Assembly (NCBI GenBank): GCA_964016885.1
Contig: OZ024741.1
Location: 134,602,001 to 134,666,000, forward strand
Direction of reading: 5' to 3'
Length of the DNA stretch: 64,000 nt
Source: Eledone cirrhosa
Lineage: Eukaryota
The stretch's first letter is position 1, and each line of letters begins with the position of its first letter. The notes below the pieces were generated by a model that had not been told where the DNA came from, did not search any database, and saw only the letters and a list, made by a program, of their open reading frames with translations. Of this stretch, positions 2,211-51,468 are shown one piece after another. Both the position numbers and the translations under genes were made by a program.

Positions 2211-2339
2211 GTATGAATGTATGTATATATATATATTGTTTATATAGAAGTAGTTCCACAACAGTTATTTCTCTGTTACCGAGAACAATTGTTTCACCTT
2301 ATTTGGATCATCAGCTCGGTTTAATATATATATATATAT

Positions 2340-4604: not shown

Positions 4605-5103
4605 ATATATATATATATATTTATGTGTATGTATATGTATATGTACGTATTTGTATGTAAGGTACTCAATACATAGCAGAGTATAAAGGTTTTAATATAG
4701 ATGAGATTCTACAGGACTAGAACTGTTTCATTCTTTAGAAATCATCATATATGTATATGTAAGTGTATGTATATACATATGTATGTGTATGTATATGTAT
4801 GTATATATATATGGATATATGTGTATATATGTATGTGTATATATGTATGTATATATATGTGTGTATATATATATGTGTATATATGTATATGTATGTATAT
4901 ATATATATATATATGTGTGAGTGTGTATATATATATATGTAAGTGTGTATATATATATATGTGTGTATATATATATATATATGTGTATATATATATATAT
5001 ATGTGTGTAAATATATATATATGTGTGTATATATATATATATATATGTGTATATATATATATATATGTGTGTAAATATATATATATGTGTGTATATATAT
5101 ATA

Positions 5104-12495: not shown

Positions 12496-13431
12496 GAGTT
12501 TGTTGATAACCCTAATTAATATTGTCACCACACCACTGACACCACTGATTCTGTAAGAGAAGTACTCTGTTCCTGGATTCATTTCAGTTAGCATTGATGA
12601 AGACAGGATGTGGCATGCTGTTACAATGCCATGGATGCACAAAGCACCTAGTGATAAATCTGATTTCATGAATTTAATATATATATTTAGTTGCATAATA
12701 AACAACACAATATAATTATTCCATTACCAAAGGTTTTCCTGAAACCTTTGGTAATGGAATAATTATATTGTGTTGTTTATTATGTAATTAAATAGTTCTG
12801 TACTATACTTAGAGCACTCTTCTTTCCTTTACCTTCTCTACGGAAATACTTGACACACACACAGTGAGAGAGAGAGATCAATCTTGCCTTTGGGGCAATT
12901 CCCATCTAGTCCATGCTAGTGTGGAAGATAGATATTAAACGATGATGATGATGATATATATATATATAAAGTAAATAAAATATATGTGATTATAGTGTAG
13001 TACTTCACTAAATTTTGTGTGAATATATATATATAATTCATACTAGTGTGGAAAATAGACATTAAACAATGATGGTGATGATGATGGATATATTAGTTAT
13101 ACACATATTTTGGCAAGGCATTGGCAGAGTCAGCAGAATGTCAGGTAGAATGCTTTGAGTTATTTGTTCCAGCTCTTTGCACTCTGAGTCCAAATCCTGG
13201 TAGGGTTAACTTTACTTTTTATTCTTTTGAGAAATTGACTGTATTCAGTACTGGAGAAGAGAAGGGCTTAGCCAGGTTTAAAATTCCCCAGACACTATGA
13301 TGCTCCTATGATTCCATCATAAGTATTACATAAATATAAATGTGTTTGATTATTCCTAATCCTCAGTAAATATTAGAAAATATCTCTGTTTTCAAATGTT
13401 TATGATCAGTTCTATTTATTCTCTCCAGCAG

Positions 13432-13608
13432 ACACAACATTTGGTGCTCTCCTCAAAGATGTTTGCTTCAGAGATAATTCCACAGTACCAAACTTTGTAG
13501 AGAAATGCATCAAGAGTATAGAATATCGAGGGCTTAAACAAGATGGTCTGTACCGAGTTAGTGGTAACCTCGCTGAAATACAGAAACTGCGTCTTTCTGT
13601 AGACAAAA
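13432..13608 (+). CDS. RhoGAP (ARHGAP9/12/15/27 family) exon A: TTFGALLKDVC...VPNFVEKCIKSIEYRGLKQDGLYRVSGNLAEIQKLRLSVDK
   Basis: Arginine-finger motif GLYRVSG; NAGNAG acceptor CCAG/CAG (13428/13431); donor GTAAGT at 13609. Confidence 0.93.
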
Positions 13609-14304
13609 GTAAGTAGATTATGGCTTTAATATTTGTTTACCCTGACTTATAATACTGTAAGTGGCCTTTTTACTTGATAATCTACTATAATCTTTCTAGA
13701 TTTGCCCTCAAAACATCACAACAACTATAGAAAATAGTGTTATGTTTGAAAGCTACCACAATGTGAATTAGACACTAAATGTTAAAAATATAACAATGAT
13801 GTTGTGGTGTTACATTAGTTCTTTAAAGGTCCTTATATTTCAGGATGAAATCCATTCATTAAAACCCTATTTTTTTCAGTTTTCACAATGCTTCAAGCAA
13901 ACTACAACATCTTATACTAAACTATATGAAATACATGAATTTGTATATATGGCGATATACAGTATGTTTATAAATTATGTTATATATGTTTATAAATTAT
14001 GTTTATACAGTGTTTACAAACATTTTGAAAGCCTTCAGCTATGAATTTGAAAACTGATGGTGTAGTGCCATCTAGTGAATTCCAACAGAAGCTAAGAACA
14101 GGTAGCTAGCGAGGATGATGTCATCATTTCTGACTCTGGTCGTTATCAAGCTAGTGCTCCCTGACCTGCTTGCTGCTGGAACTTAACATAAGTGGAAACA
14201 CATAAATTTATCCTGTTACTATACTGGTTGTTTTTTAGTGACCATAGTAGACTAATATATATATATTCTGTCTGAATTATCCATTATTTCTTCTTCTATT
14301 TCAG

Positions 14305-14445
14305 TTAATGCAAACAGTCAATACAACTTGGATGATGAATGTTGGGATATTCACACATTAACTGGAGCCCTAAAACTGTTTTTTAGGGAACTAAAAGAGC
14401 CTTTGGTGCCATTTAATAAGTTTGATAAACTAATGGAAGTTGTCA
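14305..14445 (+). CDS. RhoGAP exon B: ...YNLDDECWDIHTLTGALKLFFRELKEPLVPF...
   Basis: DIHxxTGALKLFFREL.EP motif; TTTCAG acceptor, GTGAGT donor, phase consistent with neighbours. Confidence 0.95.
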
Positions 14446-14486
14446 GTGAGTGAATGTTTAAGTTTTTATATTAGTGTTTTCAGATC

Positions 14487-21379: not shown

Positions 21380-22267
21380 CATAAAAGTTCGTTTCATACA
21401 AGAAAACATAAAAATCAGTGAAGAGAGATTACAGCTCAAAATATGAAATTTATCACTATAAACCATTCAGAAACGCTAAATACAATTCAGGTTTGAGTTG
21501 TATGAAATCCATGTTTAAAGATATTTAAGTAACAATATAAACTCATAGAGCATAAATATTATAATACAAAAGACCAAAACGGTTAATTATATTTCATTCT
21601 AATTAATTAACAAACCTTACATCCATATTTTGAGTAGATACATAATTAATTATCACTCAATTAAATAAAACAAAAAATTGGAATCAAAACTATTAAATGA
21701 AAATATAAATCAATTGATACCTCGTAAACACACCCACTCACACGCACCCTTTATTCAGTATTCATTTTGCTCTGGATTTTTGTCTATGTATTTATTATTA
21801 CTATATATATATATATTGGAAGAGTTGTTAGAATGTTGAATAGAATGCTTTATAGTATTCGTTCTGGCTCTCTGAATTCAAATCCCGCCGAGGTTAACTT
21901 TGCCTTTCATCCTTTTGAGGTCGATAAAAAAAAAAGTACCACTCTAGTACTGGGGTTGATTCTTCCTCTCTCTGGAAGAAATCTGCTGTACTCAGGCTTG
22001 GAGAGGAATGGACTCCACCAGGCTTAAAATGTCCAAGAAATGCTGTATGTCAATACAGCGCACCTACAACTCTATCAGTCGCATATTACCTTTCAAAAAT
22101 GGCGTTTATAGTAGAAAAATGCTATGTAAAATGCTTGCATCCTCGATTATGCCTAACCTCCTCCCTCTTGTCACTGGCCATTGCCATATTTCTGTGTACC
22201 TTCTTGTCAAATAGTGTTCCCAGTTCATATCCACACCTAACTAATTCATATTTCTCTTCTTTTTCAG

Positions 22268-22436
22268 AGTGATAAGATATTCTGAACACAACCGAATGCT
22301 CACTCAAAATGTTGCTATTGTCTTCGGGCCAACATTGATGTGGCCAGAACGAGAATTACACAATCTTGCCATCAGTATCACATACCAGAGTCAAATTGTT
22401 CAGTTTCTTCTTCAAAACTATGGAAGCGTCTTTTGA
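22268..22436 (+). CDS. RhoGAP terminal exon: VIRYSEHNRMLTQNVAIVFGPTLMWP...QFLLQNYGSVF*
   Basis: NRM..N.AIVFGPTL motif; strong polypyrimidine acceptor; TGA at 22434-22436. Confidence 0.95.
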
Positions 22437-24399
22437 TATCATAGATATACTTGCAAACTATGAGATGGACGTCTTAGACGGCCTGTAACCTATTTTTTTA
22501 GGTTAACTCTCTGGGTTGACATAACCCAAACCATTCCAGCTTATTTTCATGACAATAAACAATTGTGCAACATTTGTGTATACATGGAGTGTGATGTGGG
22601 AGAGAGAGGGGGTTGTTTTTTTTTCTTTTTTACTAAAAAAAAAGAGGAAAAAACCTCCCCCTCCGCCCTTGAATTTTCTGGAACAGAAAAAAATCTGTAA
22701 ACTATATACATCAAGAGTTCATTTACTTGAAGAAACAATTTTAATTTTTTTATTTTCAGTTGAAAGTTTTTTCTTGGAGATTTTGTTTTGTTTTGTTTTT
22801 TTTCTAGGTGTTTTACAGTTGCTAAATTAAATTTTAATTAACTCTAAATTAAAGTCAAAATATAAAAATTCTTCTCGCCATTCCTCAATGGTATTTCCCA
22901 TTCTTTTATTATTGAGAATTTATTTTTGTAATTCTTATTTTTCTTCTAAAGATATAGTAAACAGTTTTTATTACACCTTTCTTTGTTTAAAGACAAGAGG
23001 AGAGACTAACAATTGTCCTGCGCTGGAAGGGAGATAACTCTGGCTGTGTTCTTTATTGCAGGCTTTTCTTGTGATGAGTGTACAGGTAGCTGACAGTGAT
23101 TTTTGTGTATATACTTTCGTTATATATATATATATAATGTTTGGAATGACAAAATTCTGTCAATATAATTCGTTTGTATTTCCATTTACTTCTGTTTTAT
23201 CAAACTTTTACAAACCAAATGCTAACACGTTGTGTGTGTGTATGTGTTTGCAGTACACACACACATGTGAAATATTAACACACATACGCACACTAGTAAG
23301 CCAGTCTTACAGTTGTTGATGTCGTTTAACCCCAAGTCAATCTTGGTCGAGCAGACCCATGATTAAAGGCATTCCAGCCCTACCCATCTCATTTTTTATA
23401 TATAAGATTACACTGTCCAATGTGTCTTTTAAAACAGTTATTTGAAGGATTTTGACTGCTATCATTAGTAGGTCAACTGACTGCATAGAGGCTCCCTAAT
23501 TATATGGAAGTTATAAGTATTATTTTGTATCATAGGGTTATATGTAATATATTTTGGTTGGTATTTTCCACATTCTACCCATGTTTTGATTTGATTTCTC
23601 ATCTTCCAGTACTTTTCTTCCATGTTAGAGACAAACTAAGAGGTACTTATGCTAAGTACCACTTCCAGCTTAACTGAAACTCTAAGTTAATGTGGTTAAA
23701 CAGAGTACCACTTCCGGTCTTGGTCTCTTTTCTCTTACTCATTGCTGAGGATCAGAGACCAATGCTCATCTATATGGTGCCGTATGTTCATGATTCTCAT
23801 CAGGAAAAAAGTGACGTTGGTGGGTTCTGACCATTACTCGGAAGTTGGCTAGTGAGCTGCAGCTCATCCATTCTCATCTCAAGGATGAAGCCATTGGTCA
23901 CTTGAAGGGTAGCCACCAAGCTGACTAAGGAGTCCTGTCTATCCTAGTTTTGAAATTAGTCATTCTTCTAGACAGACTACTAACCATGGCTAACGAGCTC
24001 TGGTTACCTATTTTTTTTTTTTTTTTTTTTTTACACACTATTGGATGGCTGTTGACTCTCCTGAATTCCTCTACCCTTTGACTTCCAGTCTAAGTTGTAC
24101 TATAAGTTAATATGATTTAACAGGATGTATTCACTTCCAAATGATTGTAATTACAGGTTTATGAGGCAGTAATTCGCACACAAACAACAAACGTTTTAAG
24201 GGAACCTTAAACAGGAGTTAACCTGTTGATTTTTACTGAGGGACAAAATGCCGTCATCAGTCTGTTGGTTTACTGTTCCACCATTATTTTGTCTTGAATG
24301 GTTTTTTTTATCCACAATCAAGGAACATTTTTCATTTTTTTTTCATTTCACCATCCCCAAATGTAACGGATTTAAGAAATTCATGATGAAAATTATAAT

Positions 24400-24580
24400 T
24401 GTTGCCAATTGATGACCTCTACTTGGGACAGTGTCCAAATATTTAGATATAATTGTTGTCAATTCATGACTTCTACTTGGGACAGTGTCCAAGTATTTAG
24501 ATATAACTGTTGTCAACTGACGGCCTCCACTTGGGGAAGTGTCCAAGTGTTTAGATATAATTATTAACTGATAGGACACT
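24400..24580. repeat. ~57-bp tandem repeat x3
   Basis: Recurring CTACTTGGGACAGTGTCCAAGTATTTAGATATAA. Confidence 0.8.
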
Positions 24581-24627
24581 AACATTTCTTCTTTATTCCA
24601 TTTTCCACTATATAACTTAATTATAAA

Positions 24628-24669
<42 letters not shown>

Positions 24670-24677
24670 CATTTTGA

Positions 24678-24734
24678 GTGAGTGTCACTGATGAAAGATT
24701 ACCAAATCATGAAACAGTGATGTATGACATTCAC
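24678..24734 (+). ncRNA. Type I hammerhead ribozyme motif
   Basis: Stem I GTGAGTGTCA/TGACATTCAC; CTGATGA; stem II (A)AGATT/AATCA(T); GAAA; stem III ACA-GTGA-TGT; GUA cleavage site after 24724. Confidence 0.85.
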
Positions 24735-24939
24735 AAAACATACTGGCAACTCTGTATATTCACAGAGGAAAATAAAGAAAAATAAATTTTTTTATTCTAA
24801 TAACAAAATATTTTACTTTAGCAGTGAGGCTACTCTTATGTTTATTGTATATAAACATACTATACATGATTAAATACACCTCTATTATGCTTAAATGCTG
24901 TCTTAGTGCTACTGCAAATTATATGTATATATGTATGCA

Positions 24940-26048
24940 TATTAAGTTGGACAGAAAGCTCTTGCCGTTTTTCAAATTTTTGATTGACTTAAGATTTTTT
25001 TAACATTAGGAAAATTTTACAAGATAAATTACAAAATAATTGTCATTTGCAATTACTAGTTGCCATTGTTTAGGAAGGCACATGATTTCATCCCTGAAAC
25101 AGAGGTCTTTGACTACATAGCATTGCTCATTAGGAGAAAAAGGTAATAGGTGGGAGATCAGGTGAAGTCAGTGAGTGGGGCAGAACCTCCCAACCTACTT
25201 CCAGTAGCTTTTTATGGGTCATCTATGATGTATGCAGCTAGGCATTATCATGAAGGAATCGAACAAGACCATGGTGTTGGCACACCTGTCAATTTTCGTT
25301 GCTAATCTGTCAAGTTGTTGGCAATAGACATCAGAGGTTATTCTTGTGTTCAGTGGGAGTTGCTCATAGTGGATGACACCTTTCCAGTTCCACCAGACAC
25401 TCAGCAGGGCCTTGTGAGGTTGGAGGCCAGTGTTTGCTTGCTGTTGTGGTGCACTCTATTTATCAACATAATTGCTTGCAATTGACATTAATGTAGAGAC
25501 ACCCCTTTTTCATCACCAGTGATAACAGAATCTAACCAGTTGATTGTGTGATGGTAAGAGAACAGAGAGTCACAGCTGCTACCTGACATTCACAAATATG
25601 GTCAGTCAGATTGTGGGGCACCCATTGTTCCAACTTGAAACCTCCCTATTGCATGCAAGTGTTTGAGGTTGGCTCCCACCAGCTCATACAGTTGCTTGTC
25701 ATTGAAGTCGGAAGGACATGCTGTGCAAGGTCAATCTTTAAGGCTGTAATCACCAAAACAGAAGTGTGTAAATTAGTCCTTGGCATTGTGACACAAATGT
25801 ATTGTTAATGCGATGACTTGATGCTGTTGCACTTGGGCCAGATTTGTAGTCATAAAGTAAACAGCTACGAATAAACGATTTGGATAATCCATGTTGCTTC
25901 CCCTTTGATGGTGTAACAGAAAATGAGTAATGCACATAGTGCATCCCAATGTCACTTACGTGCACATATGCAACCTTCAACATTTCTAGAAAACTCTATC
26001 AAAATACCTCCTTTGGAAAAACTGGGAACTTTGTGTCCAACAAAATAT
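24940..26048 (-). mobile_element. Mariner transposon remnant
   Basis: TIR-like ends (ATTAAGTTGGACAGAAAG / ACTTTGTGTCCAACAAAAT); WVPH.L, VITGDEK and SPDL motifs on -. Confidence 0.8.
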
Positions 26049-26784
26049 ATTCTTTATTATGGCTAAGTGATGTCTTGTTACTCTGGATATCCACCTGTGC
26101 ATTCACTTGTCTGATTATCCTCTGAGGATGCAGGTGGAACTCCAGAATAACAAAACCCATCACTTAGCCAAAATAAAGAATATTTAATCACTAATTCGAC
26201 AGCTGAGTTCTTGCCGTTTCAACAGCTAGTTTCAGACATATATATATATCTTTCTTTCATTATAGAAAGGACTTCTACAGGACTAGAATCGTTTCATTCA
26301 TAAGAAATCATAAAGATGCCTATACTCTACTAATGTATTGAGTAACATTTATAACTGTGGTCACCTCCCGTATTCATATATGTGTGCACATGCACGCATG
26401 CATGCATGAGTGTTCTGCTTAGATAGGGCAGGATTTATAACAATTTGAGAACGGGATGTAGTGTTGATGTAAATATTCAATTAAAGCAGTCTGGCATCTG
26501 TTTTTGTAGTAAAATAATATTGTCATATATGTCATTGAATATTCAAAACGAAAGAGTCTGATATACAATGAAACAATAAGCAACACAATGAAAGTAATTA
26601 TTAATTCATTGTTTATGATTGTCAAACAATGGAATAATTGATACTTAACTTCATTTTTTGTATTCTTTCATTGTTTAACATTGTATGCGTGTATATGTAT
26701 GTGTATGCGGGAGAGTACTGATATATGTATGTTGATGCATGTGCGTGTGAACATGAACGTATATGTCTGTGCGGTAGTTATGTT

Positions 26785-26830
<46 letters not shown>

Positions 26831-27393
26831 TATATATACACGTTTGTGTGAGGTAGCTGTATATATATATATACATACATACACATGTTACTTCACACAC
26901 ACATGTATGTATATATATATATGTATATATGTTTGTATGTATATATGTCTATATACATGTGTGTATTAAAAGATTAATCCTATTTGATGTGACTATTCAC
27001 AATATTTACTTCTGTCAAATCTAAAGAAATACAGGAAGATTTTAAAAAGAAATAATTCTTACTCAAGAAATCATCTGTCTGTAATTGACAGTAAAGATGG
27101 TGAATTGGCAGAGTCATTAGAATGTTGGATAGAATACTTTGTGGTATTAAACTCAGATCACAACGAGTTGGAATAAATTCTGACTCTTTGTGCTCTGAGT
27201 TTAAGTTTGGCTGAGGTGAACTTTACCTTTCATCCTTTTGAGGTCGATAAAAAAAAGTACCAGTCCAATACTGGGGCCTAATTCTCCCTCTATATCTCTT
27301 TCTCACTTTCTCTCTAATCCTCTCTTTCTATCCTTCTCTGGAAGAAATTGGCTGTGATCAGATCTGGTTAGGGGATGGGTTCTGCCTGGTTTG

Positions 27394-27424
<31 letters not shown>

Positions 27425-27929
27425 CGAGACACACTGTATGTCGCTACAGCACCCATACAACTCCACAAAGAGTTACAGGTTCATACATATATAGAATTGA
27501 CAGAAAATTAATTAAACTTCCACTGTTTGTTGATCAAATCAAGAATATCAATTATCAAAATGTTTTTCTCACCCCCTCCACTTTCCTTCATTTTATTGTA
27601 AAAGCACCCCCTTCTTTTACTAATAATTTCCAGGTTGACATCATCATTGTTATTGTTGTTGTTATGTTATCATGTGGCAAATTAATAACAAACAATACTG
27701 TTGTGCCTGGGGAAAAAAGATAAAACTTAGTATTTATTGACATAAATCTATTTGATGACCAAGGATCTTTTTTGTTTGATTTGATTATCATAAATTGTCA
27801 AAAAAAAAGAAGAAAAAAAAAGGCAAAATACCAAGAAAAACATTTTTATTAAAAGTGAATAAATATCTTGAAATATCTATTAAAAAAAACTATCAAAAGT
27901 TGTTTTGTTTTATCGTTGTCATTTACTAA

Positions 27930-29470
27930 AAATGAAGTACCAATCATGTACTGAGTCGATATAATTGATTTTCTCCTTCCCCCAAATGCTGGCCTTGTGC
28001 CAAAATTAAGAACCATGGTGGATTGGCAGTATCGGTAGAGGGTCGGACACCATGCTTTGCAACATAGTTATGGCTCTTTACGGTCTGAGTTCAAAACCCG
28101 CTGAGGTTAACTTTGCCTTTCATCCTTATGGGGTCAATAAAATAAAGCACCAGTAATACACTGGGGTAATTGCTGGCCTTGTGTCAAAAGTAGAAACATT
28201 TATTTACTAAAAATAAAGCACCAGTAACGTACTGGGGCTGATTTAATCGACTTTCCTCTCCCACCAAATTACAGACCTTGTGCCTATACTAGAAATCATT
28301 ATTGTTGAGGGTAGTGAATTGGCAAAATTGTTTGTGTCAGGTAAAATGATTTGTGGCGTTTAGTTAAAACTTTCTGTGTTCTGAGTTTAAATGCTGCTGA
28401 ATTTCACTCTGCATTTCATCCTACTGGGGTTGATGAAATAAAGTACCTGTTAAGTTTTGGGGTAGATTTAATCGATTTCCCTTCTAAAAAATTACTGGTC
28501 TTTTGCCAAAATTAGATCATTAAAATAATTATCTATTTGACTTTTCCCTACCCCCAAATTACTGATGTCACAAACTTATAAACTATTATGGATTAGTAGT
28601 ACGTTCTGAGTTCTAATCCTGCTGAGATTAGCTTTGCCTTTCACCCTTAAAATAAAGTACTAGTCATGCACTGACGGTCGATTTAATCAGGTTTCTCCTC
28701 CCCCCAAATTGTTGGCCTTGTGCTTAAATCAGAAACCATTATTATTGTTAGGGTAGCGAATTGGCAGTATCGGTGGAATATCGGATATGATTTATGGCAT
28801 AGAATTACGGATCTTTACGATCTGAGTTCAAATCTTGCCGAGGTTAAATAATAATAATGAAATTATTGTGTACAGTGCTTGACTGCACTATAACTCATCA
28901 AAGGTGCATAGAACAATGTACAAATGTCAGGAAATTGAACAGTGTATGAGTTCTGATATACACAGTGACATGCATGTATGGTGGTGGTGGTGGGGTATTG
29001 GGAAGTGTTGACGGATGCAGTGTCCCGACAGCTAACAACTGATGCAGGTAGTTTGTTCCATGCTTCAGCAACTTTGAGCGTTTTCCTTTCATCCTCACGG
29101 AGTTCATAAAATAAAGTACCAGTAATTCACTGGGAGTCAATTTTAATGGACTTTCTCCTTCCCAAAAATGATTGGCCTTGTGCCTAAATCAGAAACGATT
29201 ATTATTGTTAGGGTGGTGGATTGGCAGTATCGGTCAGACATGCTTTGCAACATATAGTTACCTCCCTTTACGTTCTGAGTTTAAATATTGCCGAGGTTAG
29301 CTTTGCCTTTCATCCTTCCAGGGTTCATAAATTAAAGTAAGAGTATTGGGGGTAGATTTAATCGCCTCCCCTTAAAATTGTTGGCCTTCTGCCAAAATTA
29401 GAGGTCTTTATTATTTATTTATTTGATTTTCTCCTACTCCATATTGTTGACCTTGTCACAAAATTATAAA
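27930..29470 (+). mobile_element. Head-to-tail array of ~8-10 tRNA-derived SINE copies and fragments
   Basis: Repeated TTGGCAG...GAGTT...GCCTTTCATCCT...AAAGTACCAG...GGCCTTGTGCC modules. Confidence 0.85.
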
Positions 29471-30016: not shown

Positions 30017-31336
<1,320 letters not shown>

Positions 31337-49698: not shown

Positions 49699-51468
49699 CG
49701 TTTCTGAATTTGTTTAGCAAGATTCTTTATCTGAAATCGTGTGTTGAAACCGATATTGTTATACTTTGGGAGGGTCATGTTGCCAATAAGAAACACACGC
49801 ACCAATTGCTTTCACTTCAATTTATTATAATAAATTTAGAAATTTAGGAATTTATAAATTTCTGGTTGGTTGGTTGGTTCCACAACCAGATAGTTGTTTA
49901 TATATTGTCAAAGTTCTTTCGTCACACATTCTGTGACCTCTTCAGTGACTGGGGATTCTTTTCTTTGTTTTTGTGCCTCTCCTTTGTTCTGTCCTACGCC
50001 ATTTTGTTTCTGTGTGTGTGTTGTGTGCTCAGTCTTCGCATGCGCCACATCCGGGTGTCTGTGTGTGTTTATATTTGTTTATTTATTTGTTTATTTACAT
50101 GTTACCGGTTGGTTGTTTGTTCTATGTGTGTGTGTGTTTTCATTTTGTCCTTAATTGTAAGTTGTGATGTTGCTCTTCCACTCATATTTTCTATTTAATT
50201 TTGGTTGTAATTCTTTTATGTTTATTGCCTCTGTGATTTGTCAAAACATTGCGTCTTTTCTGTGTGTAGATTATATTTTTATTTCTATGTTCTCTAATTT
50301 ACCCTTATGTTCTATTTTAGCATGTTGGTAGAGTACAGATGATTCTTTACTATCTTGAAGGTCTCGCCAGTGTTCATTTATCCGTTCCCCTACACTACGA
50401 GCTGTCTCACCTATGTACACTATATTTTTGTCTCTACATTGTCCTTCAGTACATCTTATGCTATACACTACATTTCTAGTTTTACAGTTAATATGGGGGC
50501 TTATTTTACAGGTTATACATTTCTTATCTATACAGGGGGGTCTTTGGAAAGGGTATGTCTTGCTAAAAAGTGTTTTTACGGAGGTACCTGGTCTTTCTAC
50601 TATCTTAATATTGAGTTTATGTTTATCTAGGGCCCTTCTAAATTTGTAAGCTAATTCACCTCTAGGGGTTGTATCGATGAACATTACACTCTGGTATTTA
50701 TTGCTATCATACCATGAGTTTATTGTATTAGCCTTATTCCTAGTTCTTTCTATTCTATTCCAAAATTTGCTCCTATACAGGGGGCAGGTCTCATTTGTGT
50801 CATTATTTACCATTTTTTCCCATTTGGTTCTGGCTCCTCTATACACTCTGATTCTATCTCTCTGATTGTAACCAGAGAACTGCATACGGTGGATGAAGTG
50901 TTGTATGTATCTCTCTAGTTCTTCGGGGTTGCACATGCGGGACACGTTTCTCATCACCCGTACCAAATCCGCAATCAGTATGTTGATTTTGGTATGGTCC
51001 GAAACAGCCGAGTTTCGGTGGATCAGATGTTTGGAAGTCATGGGTTTGGCATAATGGGAATGGAGGATTTGTTTTTTGTTATTAATGGTATCTAACCAGA
51101 GCTCTGTGTCTAGTACAGGTAATCGATGGTTGGGGTGTTTACTTGGGTAGTCTATAGTAACTCTAATACTCTGGTGGATGGAGTTAGCTATTTGCTGGAT
51201 GCTTTCCATTGTGTTTTTCTCTAGTTCCTGACTGTTCTCTAGTGGGGGTGTCTTAACTAAAAGAATCCCCAGTCACTGAAGAGGTCACAGAATGTGTGAC
51301 GAAAGAACTTTGACAATATATAAACAACTATCTGGTTGTGGAACCAACCAACCAACCAGAAATTTATAAATTCCTAAATTTATAAATTTATTATAATAAA
51401 TTGAAGTGAAAGCAACTGGTGCGTGTGTTTCTTATTGGCAACATGACCCTCCCAAAGTATAACAATAT
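49696..51468 (-). mobile_element. Penelope-like element 2, 5'-truncated, with inverted pseudo-LTR
   Basis: ORF 51209-50271 encodes RT thumb plus GIY-YIG endonuclease (NVVYSIRC...VYIGET.RS..ER..EH); ~210-bp inverted repeats at 49755-49962 and 51258-51468. Confidence 0.9.
51272..51314 (+). ncRNA. Type I hammerhead motif in the PLE2 pseudo-LTR (element-sense copy at 49907-49949 on -)
   Basis: GTCA-CTGAAGA-G GTCAC...GTGAC-GAAAG-AA-CTT|TGAC. Confidence 0.7.

What the first reader, a model, noticed from the sequence alone, without database searches (positions are those of the whole stretch)
24678..24790. Near-textbook hammerhead in sense orientation 2.2 kb downstream of the RhoGAP stop, just before two AATAAA signals
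Seen: 10-bp stem I, intact CUGAUGA/GAAA core, 3-bp stem III closed by a GNRA loop (GUGA) so it could fold as a monomer, GUA site after 24724, and AATAAA at ~24771 and 24781. Established: 3' UTR hammerheads can lower mRNA output (rodent Clec2 genes). Inference: if a long RhoGAP 3' UTR reads past the proximal AATAAA at 22554, cleavage would remove the poly(A) tail or act as a terminator between the convergent genes.
Basis: partly seen in the sequence, partly recalled or inferred. Interest (0 to 1): 0.75.

Follow-up and report, generated by a model that had tools for sequence, protein, structure and literature searches.

The report
Decayed retrozyme hammerhead downstream of RhoGAP
The hammerhead self-cutting RNA motif downstream of this RhoGAP gene is real, but it is one worn copy of a short repeat scattered through the genome, so it is likely a leftover of a jumping element rather than a gene regulator; cutting and expression are untested.

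Summary
The type I hammerhead is there as described (core 24688-24714, cut after A24724). It sits in a 268-bp, 5'-truncated copy (24665-24932) of a dispersed non-coding repeat with a unit of about 360 nt: 40 of 40 scored genome hits match, the 39 others at 85-90%. The family has a fixed 3' end beside (TA)n, terminal redundancy and inverted partial copies, like animal non-LTR retrozymes. The GNRA loop (0 of 57 other copies) replaces a palindrome, the unbroken 10-bp helix I replaces a bulged one, and one AATAAA comes from AATAGA. An unmentioned change breaks helix II. The hammerhead has drifted as much as the rest of the element (5/59 against 9/141, p=0.56). Hammerhead motifs are common here: 29 in 400 kb, 0 in 10 shuffles. 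A sense motif within 2.3 kb of a stop is expected about 4% of the time. Whether the 3' UTR reaches it is open; one run of unrecorded type has a contig across the cut site. The scan found other hammerhead retrozyme families in this genome before, but not this family. Verdict: ordinary; co-option is about 7% likely.

The parts
22268..22436 (+). Last coding exon of a RhoGAP gene (ARHGAP12/15-like C-terminus), stop at 22434-22436
   Evidence: Translation; Pfam RhoGAP E 5.3e-05, just under the curated cut-off; PDB ARHGAP12 E 7.9e-12
22554..22559 (+). Proximal AATAAA, in single-copy DNA, followed by U/G-rich sequence
   Evidence: (22440-23310 has no other genome match among 40 scored)
24638..24665 (.). 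(TA)14 tract at the 5' junction of the repeat copy, the likely insertion target
   Evidence: junction
24665..24932 (+). 5'-truncated copy of a dispersed non-coding hammerhead repeat (positions 214-465 of a 465-nt reference copy; unit about 360 nt)
24678..24687 (+). Helix I, 5' strand. In the family majority a 2-nt bulge at 24679-24680 interrupts it
   Evidence: bulge read from the majority letters
24688..24694 (+). Hammerhead core CUGAUGA, intact
24695..24710 (+). Helix II: A-U, A.A mismatch (24709; 52 of 57 other copies have T), 4 bp, 4-nt loop with a further change at 24702
24711..24714 (+). Hammerhead core GAAA, intact
24714..24723 (+). Helix III, 3 bp with a GNRA loop. The family majority is a 10-nt palindrome; A24720 is found in 0 of 57 other copies
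24724..24725 (+). Predicted cut site after A24724 (C in 46 of 57 other copies, A in 7)
   Evidence: position from the hammerhead consensus
24725..24734 (+). Helix I, 3' strand. A24733 (T in 54 of 57 other copies) closes the family's bulge
24771..24786 (+). Two AATAAA inside the repeat's own A-rich tract. The first comes from AATAGA (G in 80% of aligned copies); the second matches the majority of the pile-up
24850..24929 (+). 3' segment of the unit that recurs upstream of the hammerhead in longer copies (terminal redundancy); the family's common 3' end
30017..31147 (-). Last exon of the convergent tubulin gene (alpha type by recalled motifs); context only

Best explanation
This is a real type I hammerhead motif inside a 5'-truncated, roughly 9% diverged copy of a dispersed 360-nt non-coding repeat, likely a non-LTR retrozyme that Penelope-type machinery copied into a (TA)n tract and whose place behind RhoGAP is likely chance. 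Shown: the motif, the family, its layout and this copy's changes. Inferred life cycle: multimeric RNA of an active ancestor was cut by the hammerhead, probably as a dimer through the palindromic helix III. It was circularised and reverse-transcribed from a fixed start for a variable length, which gives a fixed 3' end, variable 5' ends and more-than-unit copies. Inferred present state: this lone copy decays neutrally. It has lost the palindrome, the helix I bulge and the second pair of helix II, so it is predicted to cut slowly at cellular magnesium and to have little effect on RhoGAP mRNA even if a long 3' UTR runs over it.
For: Family: 373 first-look candidates, 40 of 40 scored match, the 39 others at 85-90%; 1329 candidates for a 542-nt copy, best other hit 75% over its length; 34 exact matches to a 35-place family pattern and 0 to its control. 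Layout in 68 loci (window copy and reference copy included): (TA)4 or (AT)4 within 40 nt of the 3' end in 32, of the 5' end in 11, background 12%; inverted partial copy in 15; two or more hammerheads in 5. The 3' end falls at unit position 445-465 in 32 of 67, 5' starts are spread over 0-240, and 41 of 67 carry the redundant segment upstream. No shared ORF: no other sequence is shared by most of the 30 first loci, and the Penelope-like ORFs found next to 3 copies (L063, L042, L056) differ from each other and are not continuous with the unit. Neutral decay: this copy differs from the majority at 5 of 59 hammerhead positions and 9 of 141 other positions, p=0.56; in loci picked with the long query the core differs at 26 of 302 cells and the non-ribozyme part at 508 of 4648, p=0.25. 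The centre of helix III varies as CG, TG, CA, TA, the pattern of CpG decay (inference). 31 of 57 copies keep an intact core and 15 of 57 are at least as intact as this one. Density: 29 type I motifs in 9 of 40 arbitrary 10-kb stretches (13 dispersed, 16 of one 310-nt array family), 0 in 10 shuffles; chance of a sense motif in 2289 nt is 3.7% (2.0-6.2%). Penelope-like machinery is in the genome: the window holds a GIY-YIG fragment (E 5.4e-4, under the cut-off) between inverted hammerhead-bearing repeats. Literature: mussel retrozymes of 350-390 bp and dimer-dependent axolotl motifs (PMC7229834); dispersed monomers, with the few exonic copies mostly in 3' UTRs (10.64898/2026.07.22.740005).
Against: All 11 core positions are intact and the site is GUA, so some cutting is chemically possible. 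The GNRA loop and the 10-bp helix I could favour a monomer fold. None of the 13 dispersed motifs in the 400-kb sample has this 3-bp plus tetraloop helix III, so the 3.7% figure is for hammerheads of any family; this family is rarer (fragments in 2 of 40 stretches, no full hammerhead). No tandem array or young copy of this family was found among the scored hits, so the defining tandem layout is not shown. The neutrality tests have low power (5 changes). Loci were chosen by likeness, which biases conservation and length. Run X1, of unrecorded type, has contigs over 24044-25400 with almost no repeat pile-up (10 laid against 427-472); if it is RNA, the hammerhead is transcribed on one strand or the other. 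Rfam does not recognise the motif.
Confidence: 0.78

Rival explanations
1. Active passenger: a long RhoGAP 3' UTR runs over the copy and the hammerhead cuts a measurable share of the distal isoform, but this is an unselected side effect of the insertion.
For: Intact core in sense orientation. Contigs of run X1 (library not on record, 88 million letters against about 1400 for X2-X4) cover 24044-24619, 24674-24907 and 24878 to beyond 25400, and X1 holds 0.95 of the sampled words of 22260-25200. 22200-27900 is poorer in common repeats than 27900-29400 (weak). A mussel retrozyme without the usual tertiary-contact nucleotides still cut at about 0.1 per minute (PMC7229834).
Against: Helix II pairing 0.42-0.68 and the 10.1-11.1 pair 0.13-0.26 by prediction; helix I falls to 0.23 in a 400-nt context. 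The X1 contig bridges the cut site with no difference, and its kind and strand are unknown. The proximal AATAAA at 22554 and three ATTAAA lie upstream.
Confidence: 0.13
2. Co-opted regulator: after insertion the copy was tuned into a monomeric ribozyme that removes the tail of a long RhoGAP isoform or ends read-through towards the tubulin gene, and selection keeps it.
For: Three of this copy's changes can be read as gains: GNRA loop (0 of 57 others), closed helix I (1 of 57 others), AATAGA to AATAAA 47 nt behind the cut. Precedent: the Clec2d ribozyme lowers reporter output by 80% (PMC2950038).
Against: The hammerhead has drifted as much as the rest of the element (p=0.56). One change breaks helix II and another alters loop 2; loop 1-loop 2 contacts are needed for fast cutting at low magnesium (PMC6155905). 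About 4% of stops would have a sense motif this close by chance. AATAAA occurs 81 times on the + strand of the window and in the A-rich tract of 15 of 70 aligned copies (rough count).
Confidence: 0.07
3. On origin only: the repeat is the solo terminal repeat (pLTR) of an autonomous Penelope-like element that was not found, not a free retrozyme.
For: Inverted partial copies (15 of 68) and (TA)n junctions are Penelope-like traits (PMC8557442 passages). Three copies lie near Penelope-like ORFs. Retrozymes are reported to derive from pLTRs (10.64898/2026.07.22.740005).
Against: In L063 and L042 a (TA)n tract separates the unit from the ORF, the L063 ORF has its own different hammerhead repeat, and the three ORFs differ. 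41 of 67 copies show the unit's own 3' segment upstream of the hammerhead, where a pLTR would have ORF sequence.
Confidence: 0.1
4. Chance motif or assembly artefact.
For: No Rfam match; folding z-score 0.07.
Against: 0 descriptor hits in 10 shuffles; a family with a well-formed hammerhead majority (helix II pairing 0.96); contigs of four runs give the same letters.
Confidence: 0.01

Closest known systems
Metazoan non-LTR retrozymes (Cervera and de la Pena 2020, PMC7229834: parts 2-3 of 6 and passages read; Li et al. 2026, 10.64898/2026.07.22.740005: part 1 of 5 and passages read)
   Same: Non-coding unit of about 360 nt (mussel 350-390), GC under 50%, one type I hammerhead per unit with a short helix III, many dispersed monomers, Penelope-like elements in the same genome.
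   Different: No tandem array or young copy of this family was found; RNA, circles and cutting are untested; 10.1-11.1 is A-U, not G-C; copies often end beside (TA)n.
Hammerheads in the pLTRs of Penelope-like elements (Cervera and de la Pena 2014, PMC4209133: parts 1-2 of 4 read; Craig et al. 2021, PMC8557442: passages read)
   Same: Type I order, palindromic helix III in the family majority, 6-bp helix II, inverted partial copies, microsatellite junctions.
   Different: Helix III has 3 bp plus a tetraloop and helix I is long, unlike minimal motifs; there is no extra base between positions 9 and 10.1; no ORF is attached.
Clec2 3' UTR hammerheads of mammals (reviews PMC6155905 and PMC2950038: passages read; the original paper was not read)
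   Same: A hammerhead in sense orientation downstream of a stop codon.
   Different: Clec2 motifs are discontinuous type III, found in mRNA sequences, shared among species and active in reporters. This one is a contiguous type I inside a decaying repeat; UTR membership, conservation and activity are not shown.
Intronic type I hammerheads of amniotes (RECK, CTCL, DTNB; PMC6155905 passages)
   Same: Type I motif of likely retroelement origin inside a gene's region.
   Different: Those are conserved across amniote lineages; this copy shows no more conservation than the rest of its repeat.

Membership tests
Type I hammerhead ribozyme | Core CUGANGA, GAAA and UH around three helices, open at helix I | tested here: met
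Type I hammerhead ribozyme | Stable helix II with G10.1-C11.1 (called highly conserved in PMC4209133) | tested here: not met
   A-U then an A.A mismatch; predicted pairing 0.42. The family majority has 6 bp but also A-U.
Type I hammerhead ribozyme | Loop 1-loop 2 tertiary contact for fast cutting at low magnesium | tested here: inconclusive
   The family has a 2-nt bulge in helix I, 7 bp from the core; this copy closes it and changes loop 2. That the bulge makes the contact is inference.
Type I hammerhead ribozyme | Match to an Rfam hammerhead model | tested here: not met
Type I hammerhead ribozyme | Self-cleavage | not testable with these tools
   Needs an in vitro assay
Non-LTR retrozyme | Non-coding unit of 150-450 bp, GC under 50%, with a type I hammerhead | tested here: met
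   Period 359 nt in L042; no shared ORF; 36% GC over 24001-26000
Non-LTR retrozyme | Tandem repeats with at least two complete hammerheads | tested here: inconclusive
   5 of 68 loci have two or more hammerhead-bearing pieces, mostly inverted; 41 of 67 are more than unit length; no long array among the scored hits. The window copy has one hammerhead. Only the best 40 candidates per search were scored.
Non-LTR retrozyme | Expressed as linear and circular small RNA | not testable with these tools
   No run on record as RNA was available
Penelope-like element pLTR | Repeat continuous with an RT plus GIY-YIG ORF | tested here: not met
   Not seen in 80 loci of about 3 kb or in 3 extended to about 10 kb
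Penelope-like element pLTR | Palindromic helix III for dimer cutting | tested here: inconclusive
   Met in the family majority, lost in this copy: predicted self-dimer energy -3.0 kcal/mol here, -12.4 for the near-palindromic copy L006, -0.8 to -9.0 for five others
Clec2-like co-opted 3' UTR hammerhead | Lies in the mRNA 3' UTR | tested here: inconclusive
   2.3 kb behind the stop, past one AATAAA and three ATTAAA; contigs of a run of unrecorded type cover it
Clec2-like co-opted 3' UTR hammerhead | Discontinuous type III layout | tested here: not met
   Contiguous 57-nt type I
Clec2-like co-opted 3' UTR hammerhead | Conserved at the orthologous locus, or under selection | tested here: inconclusive
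   No relatives are held for this genome. Within the copy there is no excess conservation (p=0.56, low power).
Clec2-like co-opted 3' UTR hammerhead | Lowers mRNA or reporter output | not testable with these tools
   Needs a reporter assay

The most novel reading that the evidence does not exclude
A retrozyme monomer caught being domesticated: it landed in a long RhoGAP 3' UTR, and three point changes turned a dimer-type palindromic hammerhead into a GNRA-capped monomer with a new poly(A) signal behind it, so that it now cuts the tail off the distal isoform. This would be an invertebrate counterpart of Clec2 with a traceable mobile ancestor.
Probability: 0.07. Interest if true: 0.68.

Novelty: new member of a known kind. 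Interest (0 to 1): 0.22.

Why it matters
As it stands, little: it adds one old retrozyme-like family to a genome that holds on the order of 100,000 dispersed hammerhead motifs (52,000-167,000 extrapolated from 13 in 400 kb). It is a useful warning that a sense hammerhead near a 3' end is expected by chance for a few genes in a hundred here. If the UTR does cover it and it cuts, the locus would be a simple test of how mobile ribozymes become gene regulators, because the ancestral state can be read from the other copies.

Tried and rejected
Expression: no RNA holder listed; this is no evidence either way. Whether run X1 is RNA could not be settled, because the intended comparison over introns gave no result. 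Contig depths are not used as copy numbers or expression levels. Rfam scans gave only chance matches. A first 35-place pattern had the loop one letter too short and found nothing; the corrected one found 34. Pfam did not name the Penelope-like ORFs well: 0 families for the three candidates; RVT_1 at E 0.0014 and 0.016 and GIY-YIG at E 5.4e-4, all under the cut-off, for 3 of 6. Their assignment rests partly on recalled motifs. The bacterial promoter/terminator scan is not relevant to an animal and showed nothing above shuffles. Alignment A1 had one row in the wrong orientation and was not used; no covariation count was made. Dropped rows: 6 self or duplicate loci; 13 and 12, of which L078 was not in fact a duplicate. 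A first descriptor scored helix II badly and was replaced. The scan's own notes hold no look-alike of 24665-24932. Paper searches for octopus or cephalopod hammerheads and for retrozyme exaptation in UTRs listed no paper on this family; only the listings were seen. Supplements were not read; those of PMC7229834, PMC4209133 and the 2026 preprint may list related families.

Full report
Observation. The sequence holds a type I hammerhead: helix I 24678-24687/24725-24734, CUGAUGA 24688-24694, helix II 24695-24710, GAAA 24711-24714, a 3-bp helix III with a GUGA loop, and GUA with the predicted cut after 24724. AATAAA stands at 22554, 24771 and 24781. The exon 22268-22436 ends a RhoGAP domain like the C-terminus of ARHGAP12, and a tubulin gene faces it with its stop at 30017. 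Contigs of four public runs give the same letters over 24674-24784. The motif is not chance: a descriptor finds nothing in 10 shuffles of 400 kb. Against 'near-textbook': helix II begins with A-U and an A.A mismatch, the hammerhead is not the minimum-energy fold, and Rfam does not match it.

What it is part of. A search of the own genome with 93 bases gave 373 candidates; all 40 scored match, the 39 others at 85-90%. Likeness runs from 24665, at the end of a (TA)14 tract, to about 24932-24944. Other copies go on 5' of that point, and further upstream they repeat the segment that ends the window copy. In locus L042 this gives a period of 359 nt, and the window copy is positions 214-465 of that 465-nt reference. 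In 67 loci with a hammerhead, 32 end at position 445-465, 5' starts are spread, and 41 carry the redundant segment upstream. In 68 loci, 32 have a TA run at the 3' flank (background 12%), 15 have an inverted partial copy and 5 have two or more hammerheads. These loci were picked by likeness, part of them with a long query, so long copies are over-represented, and the unit's own end is AT-rich. No copy was continuous with an ORF. Penelope-like ORFs lie near three copies, differ from each other, and in the two read in detail are separated from the unit by (TA)n. No young copy or long array of this family appeared among the scored hits.

What this copy has changed. Against 57 other copies, the window differs at 24702 (loop 2), 24709 (helix II; T in 52), 24720 (A in 0), 24724 (C in 46) and 24733 (T in 54). 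The majority has a 6-bp helix II, a GUC site, a palindromic helix III and a helix I with a 2-nt bulge followed by a long extension. So the GNRA loop and the unbroken 10-bp helix I are this copy's own changes. Palindromic helix III is the mark of dimer-acting animal hammerheads (PMC4209133, parts 1-2 read). The first AATAAA comes from AATAGA; the second matches the pile-up majority, though only 15 of 70 copies had AATAAA in that tract by a rough count. Predicted helix II pairing is 0.42 here and 0.94-0.98 in the 10 copies with all stems intact. In wider contexts helix I falls from 0.91 to 0.23. Folding programs do not see tertiary contacts, and they leave helix III unpaired in the 15 other copies shown too, so these numbers compare copies and do not predict rates.

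Selection. The hammerhead differs from the majority at 5 of 59 well-defined positions and the rest of the element at 9 of 141 (p=0.56). Across loci picked with the long query, the core differs at 26 of 302 cells, stems at 96 of 810 and the rest at 508 of 4648 (core against rest, p=0.25). 31 of 57 copies keep an intact core; 15 are at least as intact as this one. This fits neutral decay, but five changes cannot exclude recent selection.

Chance of the position. Forty arbitrary 10-kb stretches held 29 type I motifs in 9 stretches: 13 dispersed and 16 of a 310-nt array family. That gives a 3.7% chance (2.0-6.2%) of a sense motif within 2289 nt of any point, and about 97,000 dispersed motifs in the genome. 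Those 13 are of other families, mostly minimal ones; this family is rarer. The window itself holds two more descriptor hits, in the inverted ends of a truncated Penelope-like element at about 49700-51460, and remnants of two further families.

Is it in the UTR? Open. No holder is on record as RNA. Run X1 has an unrecorded library, 88 million letters of contigs against about 1400 for X2-X4, and laid 10 contigs against 427-472. Its contigs cover 24044-24619, 24674-24907 (bridging the cut site, no other letters) and 24878 to beyond 25400. I infer that it may be a transcriptome. If so, the region is transcribed past both AATAAA and molecules that span the cut site exist, but strand and level cannot be read from contigs, and tubulin read-through could give the same cover. 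The test over introns gave no result. The proximal AATAAA lies in single-copy DNA with a more U/G-rich downstream stretch.

Mechanism. Shown: motif, family, layout, private changes. Inferred from the retrozyme model (PMC7229834, parts 2-3 read; 10.64898/2026.07.22.740005, part 1 and passages): an ancestral multimer RNA was cut into units, probably circularised, and copied into (TA)n by a Penelope-type enzyme from a fixed start, leaving 5'-truncated and more-than-unit copies. This copy is a single truncated unit that cannot regenerate a unit RNA on its own. It is predicted to cut slowly, since fast cutting at low magnesium needs loop contacts (PMC6155905 passages). One caution from the same literature: a mussel retrozyme lacking the usual contact nucleotides still cut at about 0.1 per minute.

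Comparison and novelty. It works like a retrozyme hammerhead and is filed as a likely decayed monomer of a non-LTR retrozyme family; the tandem layout and the RNA are not shown. It is not a Clec2-type element: those are discontinuous type III, shared among mammals and active in reporters. In Xenopus 0.24-0.32% of retrozyme copies overlap exons, mostly 3' UTRs, so a UTR position alone would not be new. My paper searches listed no description of this family. Earlier notes of this scan describe other hammerhead retrozyme families in this genome and none like this sequence; I had reached my reading before seeing them.

Verdict. A real but ordinary hammerhead in a decaying repeat. Interest 0.22. 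The co-option reading stays possible at about 7% and would deserve 0.68.

Noticed in passing
window 49700-51460: Truncated Penelope-like element between TA-rich flanks: a minus-strand RT-end plus GIY-YIG fragment (open 50274-51263, then stops) with inverted terminal repeats that each carry a minimal hammerhead (cores at -49945 and +51276). Close copies (93-95%) in L114 and L120.
   Followed up: partly
window 26255-26335 and 4653-4747, minus strand; L063:1641-1860: Remnants of a second hammerhead family with the first core box broken. An intact version sits just before a 585-aa Penelope-like ORF in L063/L081.
   Followed up: partly
window about 2280-2326, minus strand: A further type I hammerhead-like motif with a palindromic helix III and weak helix II between TA tracts; related sequence in L088, L094 and L115.
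   Followed up: partly
L097:281-3381 and L098:8630-9683: Tandem arrays of about 310-nt units, each with a minimal hammerhead that is identical within the array (11 in L097; 4 plus 1 inverted in L098): a young retrozyme family.
   Followed up: no
window 24394-24562: A 54-nt unit repeated 3.1 times (86% match), with no repeat pile-up, just upstream of the TA tract. Unexplained.
   Followed up: no
window 23758-24082, 23310-23400 and about 24980-25400: Other dispersed repeats between the RhoGAP stop and the tubulin gene, so the possible long UTR is not repeat-free.
   Followed up: partly
window 13377-13613 and 14256-14450: Frames with upstream RhoGAP-domain exons (motifs recalled, not scanned).
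   Followed up: no
window 24252: A 2-base insertion in contigs of X1 and X4 against the assembly, probably an allele.
   Followed up: no
L081:4842-6362: A 507-aa open frame with RT end and GIY-YIG-like motifs, of the same kind as the window's truncated Penelope-like element.
   Followed up: partly
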